Virus genome (UHGV): UHGV-0326994
Source of the DNA: a virus
Length of the DNA: 64,000 nt
Strand: one strand, 5' to 3'
Under the pieces are notes generated by a model. It saw only the letters and a list, made by a program, of their open reading frames with translations. It was not told where the DNA came from and did not search any database. This document shows, one piece after another, positions 30,196 through 30,998 of the stretch. The translations under genes and the position numbers were made by a program. Positions within the stretch are counted from its first letter, which is position 1. Each line of letters begins with the position of its first letter.

Positions 30196-30329
30196 ACCAG
30201 ACCGTTGTTTATCATCTTAAGTGCTACCATTACACCAACTCGACATCTGCCGAGTGAAGGAATCGAACCTTCGCCTTTTCTTTACCGGAGAAATAGATTG
30301 TTTAAGTTTTGCTGTAAACGGTCTTCTGT
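30196..30329 (-). ncRNA. candidate structured RNA: long terminal stem enclosing a permuted tRNA-like module (Y-RNA-like?)
   Basis: Minus-sense CAGAAGACCGTT pairs with AACGGTCTGG ~110 nt away; interior has hairpin TTTCT CCGGTAA AGAAA, T-arm GAAGGTTCGATTCCTTC, closed acceptor-like stem ACTCG(N8)CGAGT and D-arm-like GTG TAATGGTAG CAC. Confidence 0.35.
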
Positions 30330-30340
30330 AAATTTGTTGA

Positions 30341-30416
30341 GCCAGACCAAGTTTTAAATTTTCAAAATTAAATTGGCTTGAAATTTCATACATTCTTGCT
30401 GAATTTGGTCTTCTGC
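30341..30416 (-). repeat. hairpin repeat family member B (CAGAAGACC...GGTCTGG)
   Basis: Inverted repeat ccagaccaa / ttggtcttctg enclosing ~50 nt AT-rich loop. Confidence 0.5.
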
Positions 30417-30502
30417 TCCTTTAAAGAATACTCGCAAGAACTCTTTAAGGGAGGGGCTAAATAGCCCTCTCAAAACATCATTTTGAAATACTTATTATAA
30501 TT

Positions 30503-30580
30503 TGGCGGTTACGAAGGGATTTGAACCCTCATCATCTCCCGTGACAGGGGAGTATTTTAACCAGATTAAACTACATAACC
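30503..30580 (-). tRNA. tRNA-Asp (anticodon GUC)
   Basis: Anticodon stem-loop CTCCC CTGTCAC GGGAG; discriminator G; CCA encoded. Confidence 0.7.
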
Positions 30581-30585
30581 TTTAT

Positions 30586-30673
30586 TGGTGTGCCGTGTAG
30601 GAGTCGAACCTACCGAGTCTCAATGACAAGGGATTTACAGTCCCCACCGCTACCATCTACGGGATAACGACAC
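30586..30673 (-). tRNA. tRNA-Tyr (anticodon GUA), class II
   Basis: 88 nt; anticodon stem-loop GGGGA CTGTAAA TCCCT; long variable arm; CCA encoded. Confidence 0.7.
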
Positions 30674-30682
30674 ATTTAAATT

Positions 30683-30760
30683 TGGCGGTTAGTCAGGGAT
30701 TCGAACCCTGTGCCATTCGCTTAACAGGCGACCGCACATACCTTATGTGCTTCCTAACCT
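30683..30760 (-). tRNA. tRNA-Asn (anticodon GUU)
   Basis: D-arm GCAC ATAAGGTAT GTGC; anticodon loop CTGTTAA; CCA encoded. Confidence 0.6.
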
Positions 30761-30770
30761 TAATACATTG

Positions 30771-30831
30771 CCAGACCGTGTTTTTCTTTTATCCGCAAAA
30801 AGTAGTTTGTTGCTGAATACGGTCTTCTGCA
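30771..30831 (-). repeat. hairpin repeat family member C
   Basis: Inverted repeat ccagaccgt / acggtcttctg directly downstream of the tRNA-Met 3' end. Confidence 0.5.
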
Positions 30832-30836
30832 AAATT

Positions 30837-30913
30837 GGAGGCGGGTGCAGGAGTCGAACCTGCCGATACCATGCTAATGAGACATGTGAGACGCCCTTTC
30901 TCTATACCCGCAA
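30837..30913 (-). tRNA. tRNA-Met (anticodon CAU), second copy with 1-72 mismatch
   Basis: Anticodon stem-loop CATGT CTCATTA GCATG; D-stem GAGA/TCTC; acceptor pairs 2-7 good, 1-72 U-C mismatch; CCA encoded. Confidence 0.5.
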
Positions 30914-30922
30914 TTCTTAATG

Positions 30923-30998
30923 ACCAGACCAAATCTCTTCTTTGTCCGATTGAATGTCAGATGAATAAGATTAAATTTGCTGCAATTGGTCTTCTGTC
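30923..30998 (-). repeat. hairpin repeat family member D
   Basis: Inverted repeat ccagaccaa / ttggtcttctg directly downstream of the tRNA-Glu 3' end. Confidence 0.5.

What the first reader, a model, noticed from the sequence alone, without database searches (positions are those of the whole stretch)
30196..30998. Family of four conserved hairpins (CAGAAGACC...GGTCTGG) interspersed among tRNA genes
Four elements (30196-30329, 30341-30416, 30771-30831, 30923-30998) share near-identical terminal inverted repeats and a conserved 5' flank (CAGAAGACC R W WTNCAGCAA in minus sense) but have different interiors of 40 to 110 nt. Two sit immediately after a tRNA 3' CCA. They could be RNase processing signals, small stable RNAs as in the T4 tRNA region, or miniature mobile repeats.
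Basis: seen in the sequence. Interest (0 to 1): 0.6.

Follow-up and report, generated by a model that had tools for sequence, protein, structure and literature searches.

The report
Phage Y-like RNAs beside Ro60 homolog
The four hairpin-ended elements scattered among this phage's tRNA genes are genes for small non-coding RNAs of a widespread but uncatalogued family that sits next to a Ro60-like ring protein in very different phages, so they are most likely that protein's 'Y RNA' partners, and one of them carries a tRNA look-alike domain.

Summary
Four same-strand elements at about 30194-30999 (minus strand) share an exact CAGAAGACC...CAGCAA...GGTCTGG frame, far beyond chance. The window is a Felixounavirus tRNA cluster.

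Each element has the same base:
- a covarying 4-bp outer stem
- an AGA/G internal loop
- a 7-bp helix
- NNN-CAGCAA

The interiors differ. Element A's interior is a circularly permuted tRNA-like domain (hairpin, T arm, closed acceptor stem, D arm), as in bacterial YrlA Y RNAs.

The gene directly upstream (31331-32746, Pfam DUF2828+DUF7788) models as a Ro60 ring plus vWA domain. Its top 12 PDB fold matches are all Ro60. It is 98% identical to Bas63 gp130, a reported anti-Ppl factor.

The same helix+CAGCAA RNAs lie beside homologues of this protein in unrelated phages: 110 descriptor hits on the gene strand versus 3 on the opposite strand in 80 metagenomic loci. They also occur beside homologues in Listeria, Campylobacter and Mycobacterium phages. 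A covariance model trained only on distant members ranks the four window elements first.

Rfam has no such family.

Verdict: a new variant of the Ro60/Y-RNA kind. Expression and protein binding in this phage are inferred, not shown.

The parts
31331..32746 (-). Gene for a 471-aa Ro60-like protein (Pfam DUF2828 + DUF7788/vWA), the proposed protein partner of the RNAs; orthologue of Bas63 gp130
   Evidence: The ORF is listed and hits Pfam DUF2828 and DUF7788. PHROG 850 calls it 'RNA-binding protein'. The AF2 model has pLDDT 87.4. The top 12 Foldseek PDB hits are all Ro60/Rsr/phiLo Ro60 over the full length, with E down to 2e-8 and TM up to 0.66. The MIDAS residues D279, S281, S283, T349 and D381 are invariant in 36 homologues. 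It is 98% identical to bas63_0130.
31284..31312 (-). Sigma-70-like promoter (TTGACA-17-TAATAT) between the protein gene and tRNA-Pro
   Evidence: It matches 10 of 12 consensus positions. This is a consensus match only.
31192..31221 (-). Second sigma-70-like promoter (TTGACA-18-TAAAGT, with TG) just upstream of tRNA-Pro. No strong (>=10/12) promoter-like site follows on this strand until 29798; a weaker 9/12 match lies at 29908-29879, inside the tRNA-Met/tRNA-Ile genes
   Evidence: Co-transcription of the RNAs with the tRNAs is inferred from this.
30921..30999 (-). Element D: short Y-like RNA between tRNA-Glu and tRNA-Met. Outer stem UGAC/GUCA, AGA/G loop, helix AGACCAA/UUGGUCU, UUG-CAGCAA, 44-nt interior
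   Evidence: Sequence and fold. It is a descriptor hit. The covariance model R1 scores it 21.6 bits, E 3.3e-3.
30768..30832 (-). Element C: short Y-like RNA between tRNA-Met and tRNA-Asn. Outer stem UUGC/GCAA, helix AGACCGU/ACGGUCU, AUU-CAGCAA, 30-nt interior
   Evidence: R1 scores it 25.2 bits, E 3.7e-4. A second allele in other phages has the compensated outer stem UUAC/GUAA.
30339..30418 (-). Element B: short Y-like RNA downstream of tRNA-Asp. Outer stem GAGC/GCUC, helix AGACCAA/UUGGUCU, AUU-CAGCAA, 45-nt interior with a small hairpin
   Evidence: R1 scores it 26.4 bits, E 1.9e-4.
30194..30331 (-). Element A: YrlA-like RNA. Outer stem UUAC/GUAA, helix AGACCGU/ACGGUCU, UUA-CAGCAA, 103-nt interior holding a permuted tRNA-like domain
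   Evidence: R1 scores it 25.6 bits, E 3e-4.
30221..30293 (-). tRNA-like domain inside element A. It comprises an anticodon-arm-like or V hairpin UUUCU-CCGGUAA-AGAAA (30293-30277), T arm GAAGG-UUCGAUU-CCUUC (30272-30256), closed acceptor-like stem ACUCGGC-AGAU-GUCGAGU (30255-30238), U8 G9, and D arm GUGU-AAUGGUA-GCAC (30235-30221)
   Evidence: The sequence is and the minimum-free-energy fold draws all four hairpins. The Rfam tRNA model aligns the hairpin, variable loop and T arm at 22 bits. The acceptor-like hairpin has a different but still self-complementary sequence in Mooglevirus ESh20.
30048..30196 (-). Candidate fifth RNA: a 150-nt structure closed by a ~24-bp stem, with an internal mini-hairpin CAGACC-UUAAGCAA-GUCUGG that resembles the family's helix+NNN+(C)AGCAA module
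   Evidence: The fold has z = -4.55 and 0 of 200 shuffles fold as well. The stem is kept through compensatory changes in Mooglevirus. Membership of the family was not tested statistically.
30503..31165 (-). tRNA genes interleaved with the elements (Pro, Glu, Met, Asn, Tyr, Asp), presumably in the same precursor transcript
   Evidence: ARAGORN and Rfam.

Best explanation
The four elements are genes for small non-coding RNAs that act as the cognate 'Y RNA-like' partners of the Ro60-like protein encoded immediately upstream.

Each RNA has a constant handle and a variable body. The handle is the helix formed by the 5' and 3' ends, followed on the 5' strand by three nucleotides and single-stranded CAGCAA, and closed on the 3' side by an unpaired G. 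In this genus there is an extra AGA/G loop and a 4-bp outer stem. The handle is inferred to be the docking site for the Ro-like ring.

The body differs between RNAs. In element A it is a tRNA mimic of the YrlA type. In B, C and D it is short and A-rich.

The RNAs are inferred to be transcribed with the tRNAs from the promoters upstream of tRNA-Pro. They would then be cut out by the tRNA-processing enzymes, since D and C begin 3-4 nt after a CCA end.

By analogy with Ro60/Y RNA particles (Rsr-Y RNA-PNPase in Deinococcus and Salmonella; phiLo phage Ro60-Yrl-PNPase), the RNAs would gate the ring or tether it to different partners. The tRNA-like one would tether it to tRNA-recognising enzymes, for RNA surveillance, RNA repair or counter-defence during infection.

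Shown here: the RNA family, its structure, and its genomic coupling to the protein family. Inferred: expression, processing, protein binding and function.
For: 1. Structure. The outer stem and inner helix pair in 100% of cells on 11 distinct termini, with compensatory changes. In 14 tRNA-like members from different phages, 6 of the 7 terminal-helix pairs and the T-arm pairs covary. In 21 short members, the one pair not imposed by my selection is AU in 14, UA in 6 and other in 1.

2. The partner protein is Ro60-like. The AF2 model has pLDDT 87. All top 12 PDB fold hits are Ro60/Rsr/phage Ro60 over the full length. The MIDAS residues are invariant.

3. Coupling of RNA and gene.
- In 80 IMG/VR loci fetched only through the protein, the descriptor hits 110 times on the gene strand, 3 times on the other strand, and 1.7 times in shuffles.
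- 55 of 80 loci carry a hit, 51 of 80 within 1 kb of the gene, and none falls inside the gene.
- Without the five Felixounavirus loci this is 90 hits in 50 of 75 loci.
- Many of these loci have no tRNA genes.
- In 80 bacterial or MAG contigs the count is 47 versus 4.

4. Independent model. The covariance model R1 was built only from non-Ounavirinae members. Its top four hits in the 64-kb window are exactly the four elements, with E from 2e-4 to 3e-3. It also finds tandem members directly next to the homologous gene in Listeria phage LMTA-34, Campylobacter phage F375 and Mycobacterium phage Bazzle.

5. Y-RNA kinship. Element A has the V-T-AS-D order that defines YrlA. Rfam's YrlA model gives sub-threshold hits to tRNA-like members in other loci: 39.2 and 38.9 bits (E 4e-5 and 5e-5), then 28.7 and 26.7 bits.

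6. Literature.
- Bas63 gp130, 98% identical to the window protein, was noted to resemble Ro60, and the authors guessed that Y RNAs might hide among the tRNA genes (PMC11482910).
- Thermus phage phiLo Ro60 binds two adjacent Y-like RNAs and host PNPase (PMC12135203).
- In Listeria phage CKA15, very abundant non-coding transcripts lie within 2 kb upstream of the homologous gene (PMC12282133).
Against: - There are no expression, RNA-end or binding data for these RNAs in any Felixounavirus.
- Bas63 gp130 alone, expressed from a plasmid or from the T7 genome, counters the Ppl defence (PMC11482910). That activity therefore does not need the phage RNAs.
- The canonical Ro-binding motif (GNCGAA/CGAA) is absent from the family.
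- Rfam YrlA does not hit element A at E <= 10.
- The protein is not detected as TROVE or Ro60 by sequence, either with Pfam or with a PDB profile search. The similarity is seen only at the fold level.
- 25 of the 80 IMG/VR loci have no descriptor hit.
- The loci were fetched through the protein, so a different co-conserved neighbouring gene cannot be formally excluded as the true partner.
Confidence: 0.75

Rival explanations
1. The elements are real small RNAs, but they work independently of the Ro-like protein. They might be decoys or sponges for host tRNA-directed nucleases, or regulatory sRNAs. Their adjacency to the gene would then reflect co-regulation rather than a physical complex.
For: gp130 alone suffices against Ppl when moved to T7. 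Element A is a tRNA mimic, and phage tRNAs are known counter-defence tools (references cited).
Against: The constant part of every member is the terminal helix plus CAGCAA, not the body. This argues for one common ligand. The only gene that accompanies the RNAs across Proteobacteria, Firmicutes, Actinobacteria and Campylobacter phages in my sample is the DUF2828 gene. Members usually lie within a few hundred nucleotides of it. Canonical Ro60 proteins do bind adjacent RNAs.
Confidence: 0.12
2. The hairpins are processing or stability signals for the polycistronic tRNA precursor (RNase E, RNase III or exonuclease stops) and have no function once excised.
For: They sit between tRNA genes, and two begin 3-4 nt after a CCA end. 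There is no strong (>=10/12) promoter-like site between 31192 and 29798; the one weaker 9/12 match in that stretch (29908-29879) lies downstream of all four elements, so they are probably co-transcribed with the tRNAs.
Against: The same family occurs next to the homologous gene in dozens of loci with no tRNA genes. A 7-bp helix is too short for RNase III. The conserved single-stranded CAGCAA and the full tRNA-like domain of element A are not needed for a processing stop. Most tRNA junctions in this same cluster lack any such element.
Confidence: 0.07
3. They are miniature mobile or recombinogenic repeats with terminal inverted repeats (MITE-like, or attC-like cassettes carrying tRNA genes).
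For: They have inverted termini with variable interiors. Phage PMBT20 has lost everything between two copies, with the junction inside the shared 5' repeat. This shows that the repeats can mediate deletion.
Against: There are only four copies, all in one cluster and one orientation. They occupy identical positions in every Felixounavirus and Mooglevirus examined. There are no copies elsewhere in the 64-kb window except chance-level hits inside ORFs. The compensatory changes are those expected of RNA helices, including G-U intermediates. No transposase or integrase is associated.
Confidence: 0.03
4. They are decayed tRNA genes (pseudogenes) left by rearrangements in the tRNA cluster.
For: Element A contains tRNA-derived arms. 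Some GenBank records carry a tRNA pseudogene annotation in this cluster, but it lies on the tRNA-Tyr gene (L001/L002 1929-2013), not on element A at L001 2282-2408.
Against: B, C and D have no tRNA arms. Element A's arms are intact, correctly ordered for a permuted cloverleaf, and conserved with compensatory change across genera. The non-tRNA handle is the most conserved part.
Confidence: 0.03

Closest known systems
YrlA / YrlB Y RNA-like RNAs of Salmonella, Mycobacterium and some phages (Rfam RF02553; Chen et al. 2014, PMC4201824)
   Same: They are encoded next to, and on the same strand as, a Ro60-type gene, often several per locus. The 5' and 3' ends pair to form the presumed protein-binding stem. 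In one RNA per locus the body is a tRNA mimic with V, T, closed acceptor-like (AS) and D arms in that order, exactly as in element A. The YrlA model gives sub-threshold hits to tRNA-like members of this family.
   Different: The protein-binding end differs: helix + NNN-CAGCAA + 3' G here, against GNCGAA(N)G in YrlA and YrlB. In the YrlA alignment the outer helices do not match. All scores are below the gathering threshold, and element A is not hit at all. The partner protein belongs to Pfam DUF2828/DUF7788, not TROVE.
Thermus phage phiLo Ro60 with Yrl1 and Yrl2 (PMC12135203)
   Same: A phage-encoded Ro60-fold protein has two or more small RNAs encoded right beside it. For phiLo, binding and a complex with host PNPase were shown experimentally. 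The phiLo Ro60 structures (9l5y, 9kop) are among the top fold matches of the window protein.
   Different: The phiLo RNAs were picked by a CGAA motif in an internal bulge. The phiLo protein is recognisable as Ro60 by sequence. There is no tRNA cluster context.
Metazoan Y RNAs bound to Ro60
   Same: They are small RNAs whose terminal stem carries a conserved, bulged protein-binding helix while the rest of the molecule varies. There are several paralogous RNAs per genome. In Felixounavirus the handle even has a bulged helix (AGA/G).
   Different: There is no sequence similarity. The conserved strand and motif differ. These RNAs are Pol III transcripts with an oligo-U tail for La.
T4 species 1 and 2 RNAs (rnaC, rnaD)
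   Same: They are small stable RNAs encoded inside a phage tRNA cluster and cut from the same precursor.
   Different: They do not match the family model (best 5.4 bits). T4 did not appear among phages encoding a DUF2828 homologue in the listed tblastn rows.
Bas63 gp130, a Ro60-like anti-Ppl factor (PhageMaP preprint, PMC11482910)
   Same: It is the orthologous protein (98% identity) in the same gene order. All four elements are present in Bas63.
   Different: The authors suggested that some annotated tRNA genes might be Y RNAs. The candidates found here are instead the unannotated spacers between the tRNA genes. The anti-Ppl activity did not require them.

Membership tests
Y RNA (functional class: small RNA partner of a Ro60-type protein) | Encoded beside, and on the same strand as, a Ro60-type protein gene (the rule for bacterial and phage Y RNAs) | tested here: met
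   The elements lie 330-1140 nt downstream of a Ro60-fold gene on the same strand. The family shows 110 hits on the gene strand versus 3 on the other, and 51 of 80 loci have a member within 1 kb of the gene.
Y RNA (functional class) | The 5' and 3' ends pair into a stem that carries a conserved binding site, while the rest of the RNA is variable | tested here: met
   The terminal helix is supported by covariation. The interiors are unrelated in sequence and range from 30 to 103 nt.
Y RNA (functional class) | Canonical Ro-binding sequence (GGUCCGA in vertebrates; GNCGAAN0-1G or CGAA in bacteria and phages) | tested here: not met
   The family consensus is A-G-R-N4 / NNN / CAGCAA ... / G. No CGAA motif is conserved. 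The definition is taken from PMC4201824 and PMC12135203.
Y RNA (functional class) | Physical association with the Ro60-type protein | not testable with these tools
   This needs RIP or CLIP, or gel shifts.
YrlA (Rfam RF02553) | Score at or above the curated gathering threshold (69 bits) | tested here: not met
   There is no hit on element A at E <= 10. Relatives in other loci score 26.7-39.2 bits.
YrlA (Rfam RF02553) | tRNA-like domain with V, T, closed acceptor-like (AS) and D stem-loops in that order between the two strands of the terminal stem | tested here: met
   This holds for element A only. The hairpins are at 30293-30277, 30272-30256, 30255-30238 and 30235-30221. B, C and D lack it, as does YrlB.
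YrlA (Rfam RF02553) | tRNA-type modifications and recognition by RNase P and the CCA-adding enzyme | not testable with these tools
   These are biochemical features.
Ro60 / TROVE protein family (for the partner protein) | Sequence match to Pfam TROVE or to solved Ro60 proteins | tested here: not met
   Pfam gives DUF2828 + DUF7788 only. phmmer and a 36-sequence profile against PDB find no Ro60. There is no NCBIfam hit.
Ro60 / TROVE protein family (for the partner protein) | Alpha-helical repeat ring followed by a vWA domain with a MIDAS site | tested here: met
   The AF2 model has pLDDT 87 and pTM 0.88. The full-length Foldseek top 12 are all Ro60-type, with probability 1.0. The D-x-S-x-S, T and D residues are invariant.
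MITE-like mobile repeats | Many dispersed copies at non-syntenic sites, with terminal inverted repeats and target duplications | tested here: not met
   There are four clustered, co-oriented, syntenic copies and no dispersed copies.
Intrinsic terminators | G+C-rich hairpin followed by a U run | tested here: not met
   No terminator-like site on the minus strand coincides with the elements.
T4 rnaC/rnaD-type small stable RNAs | Homology to T4 species 1 or 2 RNA | tested here: not met
   The R1 model gives at most 5.4 bits on T4 rnaC or rnaD. Only the genomic context is alike.

The most novel reading that the evidence does not exclude
The DUF2828 protein and its CAGCAA-handle RNAs form a modular phage ribonucleoprotein toolkit. 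One ring protein is loaded with interchangeable adaptor RNAs: a tRNA mimic, short A-rich RNAs, and ~240-nt structured RNAs in other phages. Each adaptor points the ring at a different host or phage target.

The particle would act as a general counter-defence or RNA-repair device. It would protect or salvage the phage's own tRNA supply from host tRNA- and RNA-directed immunity. In some phages it may even be delivered with the virion, since the Listeria phage homologue was detected in purified particles. The system is present in hundreds of cultured phages (710 records).
Probability: 0.2. Interest if true: 0.85.

Novelty: new variant of a known kind. Interest (0 to 1): 0.62.

Why it matters
Ro60/Y-RNA particles are well known in animals and in a few bacteria, but what they do in phages is open. 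Here a large protein family still filed as 'domain of unknown function' gains a defined, searchable RNA partner family. The protein family has 2847 hits in the metagenomic search and occurs in 710 cultured phage genomes, from coliphages to Listeria, Staphylococcus, Campylobacter, Vibrio and mycobacteriophages.

- **Unexplained sequence.** It explains unannotated spacers, and probably spurious small ORFs, in Felix O1-like genomes that are used for phage therapy and typing.
- **Candidates for a published guess.** The authors of the Bas63 study guessed that gp130 has Y RNAs. These elements are concrete candidates.
- **A testable protein-RNA pair.** The handle is simple enough to mutate. The protein has a known phenotype against the Ppl defence. 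The system works in E. coli K-12.
- **Modularity of Y RNAs.** The constant handle with a variable body, including a YrlA-type tRNA mimic attached to a different handle, bears on how Y RNAs evolve.

Tried and rejected
- **Rfam.** Rfam 15 was scanned at permissive E-values over the region and over element A alone. Only a weak tRNA hit appeared, so this is not a described family.
- **Exact motif elsewhere.** The exact Felixounavirus motif (AGA[AG]GAC[CT]...GTC) in distant loci gave only chance hits in coding sequence. The helix sequence is lineage-specific, so I switched to a structural descriptor.
- **Other motif types.** Kink-turn, archaeal bulge-helix-bulge splice motif, group I intron ends, small self-cleaving ribozymes and integron attC sites were considered from the sequence. 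All were dropped because the required consensus nucleotides are absent and only the base of the hairpin is conserved.
- **Lower-ranked model hits.** Extra R1 hits in the window at 54585-54700, 61949-62011 and 12932-13007 lie inside ORFs or antisense to one. They have E of 0.015-0.08 and were treated as chance.
- **Protein by sequence.** Sequence-level detection of Ro60 for the protein failed. Only the fold comparison worked.
- **Chen et al. 2014 supplement.** The supplementary phage list is not held. I could not check whether any DUF2828-type locus was already in their set.
- **Literature.** Searches for DUF2828, Ro-like phage proteins and Felixounavirus small RNAs found no description of this RNA family. 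The library lacks most subscription journals.
- **T4.** T4 rnaC and rnaD were tested against the model and gave no match.
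Full report
**What the window is.** The region is the tRNA cluster of a Felix O1-like myovirus. A 1-kb query around the finding matches 296 phage records, almost all Felixounavirus or close relatives, at up to 98% identity. ARAGORN finds 25 tRNA genes, all on the minus strand.

**The observation.**
- On the minus strand, CAGAAGACC occurs exactly four times, at the stated places.
- GGTCTGG closes each element.
- The longer frame AGAAGACC-N5-CAGCAA is found with no mismatch only there.
- RNA folding shows a shared base. It has a 4-bp outer stem whose sequence differs in every copy but always pairs, a conserved asymmetric internal loop (AGA opposite G), and a 7-bp helix AGACCNN/NNGGUCU whose last two pairs are AA/UU or GU/AC. 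Three nucleotides and then CAGCAA follow.
- On 11 distinct termini taken from the four paralogues and their orthologues in Felixounavirus and Mooglevirus, every one of 121 cells is a standard pair. Three of the four outer pairs and two inner pairs change on both sides, with G-U intermediates. Sliding the partner by one to three columns drops pairing to 17-47%.

**The interior of the longest element.** Read 5' to 3' on the minus strand, element A (30194-30331) contains, after CAGCAA:
- a 5-bp/7-nt hairpin (UUUCU CCGGUAA AGAAA)
- a 4-nt linker
- a perfect T arm (GAAGG UUCGAUU CCUUC)
- a 7-bp stem closed by AGAU, whose strands are in the order acceptor-3' then acceptor-5' (ACUCGGC ... GUCGAGU)
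- U-G
- a D arm (GUGU AAUGGUA GCAC)

The Rfam tRNA model aligns the hairpin, variable loop and T arm at 22 bits. This is a circularly permuted cloverleaf. The acceptor end is closed, and the molecule opens where the anticodon stem would continue into the terminal helix. That is the architecture (V, T, AS, D) described for bacterial YrlA Y RNAs (PMC4201824). In Mooglevirus ESh20 the acceptor-like hairpin has a different sequence that still pairs, and the first hairpin keeps its stem with a different loop.

**The neighbouring gene.**
- The ORF at 31331-32746 on the same strand, just upstream of the promoters of the tRNA cluster, encodes 471 aa. It matches Pfam DUF2828 and DUF7788 and PHROG 850, 'RNA-binding protein'.
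- Sequence searches do not connect it to Ro60.
- An AlphaFold2 model built on 36 homologues is confident (pLDDT 87.4, pTM 0.88).
- Its 12 best Foldseek matches in the PDB are all Ro60-type proteins aligned over their full length: Xenopus and human Ro60, Deinococcus Rsr and Thermus phage phiLo Ro60, with E from 2e-8 to 1e-6 and TM up to 0.66. Only after these come isolated vWA domains.
- The MIDAS residues of the vWA domain are invariant in the family.
- The protein is 98% identical to bas63_0130, which lies in the same position before tRNA-Pro in phage Bas63. Bas63 carries all four elements.
- A preprint reports that gp130 resembles Ro60 structurally and counters the Ppl defence system. [quoted passage not shown] They did not identify the RNAs. 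gp130 alone worked when moved to T7.

**Is the RNA tied to the protein beyond this genus?** I fetched 80 viral metagenomic loci through the protein alone; most share 39-48% identity with it.
- The exact Felixounavirus motif is absent outside the genus.
- Inspection of T-arm-like sequences not called as tRNAs revealed the same layout next to the gene in many loci: a 6-8 bp terminal helix, three nucleotides, CAGCAA (sometimes CCGCAA), a variable body, the 3' strand, then G.
- A descriptor of this layout hits 110 times on the strand of the gene, 3 times on the opposite strand, and 1.7 times on average in dinucleotide shuffles. 55 of 80 loci have at least one hit and 51 have one within 1 kb of the gene. 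The median distance is 188 nt upstream or 342 nt downstream, and no hit falls inside the gene.
- Leaving out the five Felixounavirus loci, 90 hits remain in 50 of 75 loci.
- Many of these loci contain no tRNA gene at all.
- In 80 contigs from bacterial genome assemblies, the count is 47 on the gene strand against 4.
- The bodies fall into three classes: short A-rich RNAs of 46-90 nt, tRNA-like RNAs of about 100-130 nt, and larger structured RNAs of about 160-250 nt.
- In 14 tRNA-like members, six of the seven terminal pairs and the T-arm pairs show compensatory change, while the second pair is an invariant G-C.
- In 21 short members, the outermost pair, which my selection did not impose, is A-U in 14, U-A in 6 and unpaired in 1.

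**An independent, calibrated test.** A covariance model (R1) was built only from those 21 short, non-Ounavirinae RNAs and run without filters over the whole window.
- Its four best hits are elements B, A, C and D, at 26.4, 25.6, 25.2 and 21.6 bits (E from 2e-4 to 3e-3). The next hits lie inside ORFs and are weaker.
- In cultured phages the same model finds the following, all on the gene strand:
  - three tandem members in the 400-nt gap directly upstream of the homologous gene of Listeria phage LMTA-34 (E 9e-6, 2e-5, 3e-4)
  - two members directly upstream of the gene in Campylobacter phage F375
  - a short/tRNA-like/short trio directly downstream of the 'Ro-like RNA binding protein' of mycobacteriophage Bazzle
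- T4 rnaC and rnaD do not match.

**Relation to known Y RNAs.**
- Rfam contains YrlA (RF02553). It does not hit element A.
- It does give sub-threshold hits to tRNA-like members of the family in three other loci: 39.2, 38.9, 28.7 and 26.7 bits against a threshold of 69.
- In the alignment, the T, acceptor-like and D arms match, but the outer helices of YrlA, which carry the GNCGAA motif, do not.
- The family therefore shares the tRNA-mimic body with YrlA but has its own handle. This fits a partner protein that is a divergent branch of the Ro60 fold.
- There is precedent for phage Ro60 proteins binding adjacent small RNAs. Thermus phage phiLo Ro60 binds Yrl1 and Yrl2 and forms a complex with host PNPase (PMC12135203).
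- In Listeria phage CKA15, the homologous protein was matched to Rsr by HHpred and was detected in virions. Three extremely abundant non-coding transcripts lie within 2 kb upstream on the same strand (PMC12282133). I could not map these transcripts onto the three predicted members. One of them may be the ROOL RNA that lies in the same region of LMTA-34.

**How it most likely works.**
- *Shown:* the RNAs' conserved architecture and their coupling to the gene.
- *Inferred, transcription and processing:* the RNAs are made as part of the tRNA precursor. The only strong (>=10/12) promoter-like sites on this strand lie upstream of tRNA-Pro, and the next strong one is at 29798. They would be released by the enzymes that trim the flanking tRNAs.
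- *Inferred, binding:* the helix plus CAGCAA plus 3' G is the docking site for the Ro-like ring.
- *Inferred, role of the bodies:* the variable bodies select what the particle does. Element A would present a tRNA shape to tRNA-recognising enzymes.
- *Inferred, biological role:* RNA surveillance, RNA repair or counter-defence. This rests on analogy with Ro60/Y RNA particles, on the Ppl phenotype of gp130, and on the RtcB ligase gene near the Listeria phage homologue.
- *Against an obligatory role in Ppl evasion:* gp130 alone is sufficient for that in T7.

**Rivals.**
- Processing signals fail to explain the tRNA-free loci and the conserved single-stranded motif.
- Mobile repeats fail on synteny and copy number. 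The repeats can nevertheless mediate deletions, as in phage PMBT20, which lost elements C and B and four tRNA genes.
- tRNA pseudogenes fail for B, C and D, and on the conservation of A.
- RNAs that act without the protein remain the main alternative.

**Novelty.**
- Known: the Ro60/Y RNA principle, YrlA-type tRNA mimics, phage Ro60 homologues with adjacent Y-like RNAs, and the Ro60-like fold of Bas63 gp130.
- Not found in Rfam 15 or in the searchable literature: this RNA family, its CAGCAA handle, its systematic pairing with the DUF2828/DUF7788 protein family across phages of four bacterial phyla, and the identification of the four (perhaps five) RNAs in Felix O1-like phages.

I therefore rate it a new variant of a known kind.

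Noticed in passing
window 30048-30196 (minus strand): Between element A and tRNA-Lys lies a 150-nt RNA closed by a ~24-bp stem (z = -4.55). The stem is kept through compensatory changes in Mooglevirus. It contains a mini-hairpin CAGACC-UUAAGCAA-GUCUGG (ESh20: CAAACC-CUUUAGCAA-GGUUUG) that looks like a minimal helix+NNN+(C)AGCAA handle. It may be a fifth RNA partner.
   Followed up: partly
L089 (Listeria phage LMTA-34) 1928-2479, 3122-3385, 6308-7519: A ROOL RNA (88.5 bits, just below its threshold), three family members and an RtcB-type 'tRNA splicing ligase' gene all lie around the DUF2828 homologue. This context is reminiscent of the Salmonella rsr-yrlBA-rtcBA RNA-repair operon.
   Followed up: partly
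L029 3218-3330 and 293-616: There is an un-permuted relative: a tRNA-like RNA (Rfam tRNA, 49.8 bits) with an open acceptor stem. Its extended anticodon arm holds a helix closed by a loop, followed by UUACAGCG. In effect it is the circular permutation of the YrlA-like members. A permuted tmRNA (71.7 bits) lies in the same locus.
   Followed up: no
L085 (Salmonella phage PMBT20) 2609-2901: This phage has only elements D and A. Elements C and B and tRNAs Met, Asn, Tyr and Asp are missing. The junction lies in the 5' repeat shared by one allele of C and by A, which suggests deletion by recombination between the repeats.
   Followed up: partly
L011, L016, L021-L023, L026 (about 5460-5720); L044, L060, L067, L069: Family members of about 240 nt have large interiors that are conserved between phages and structured. 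They match no Rfam family and were not analysed further.
   Followed up: no
short family members, e.g. L016 5409-5467, L065 3836-3893: Several short members repeat AGCAA two more times in their A-rich interior. This could mean more than one binding site per RNA.
   Followed up: no
window 30100-30357 (+), 30217-30393 (-); L002 2249-2506; L083 12749-13023: Small ORFs overlapping the elements are annotated as 'hypothetical protein' in several GenBank records (AYO145A_047, bas63_0137 and bas63_0138). They are probably spurious calls over RNA genes.
   Followed up: no
window 29368-29446 (minus strand) and 29002-29394: A tRNA recognised by Rfam (31.7 bits) is missed by ARAGORN. A 130-aa ORF whose cysteine/histidine pattern looked to me like an HNH endonuclease (no Pfam family matched) starts inside its 3' end. 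This is typical of homing-endonuclease insertions in phage tRNA clusters.
   Followed up: no
element C, window 30768-30832, versus L003 5921-5979, L083 12240-12298: Element C exists as two alleles with unrelated interiors and compensated outer stems (UUGC/GCAA versus UUAC/GUAA). The body can be swapped while the handle is kept.
   Followed up: partly
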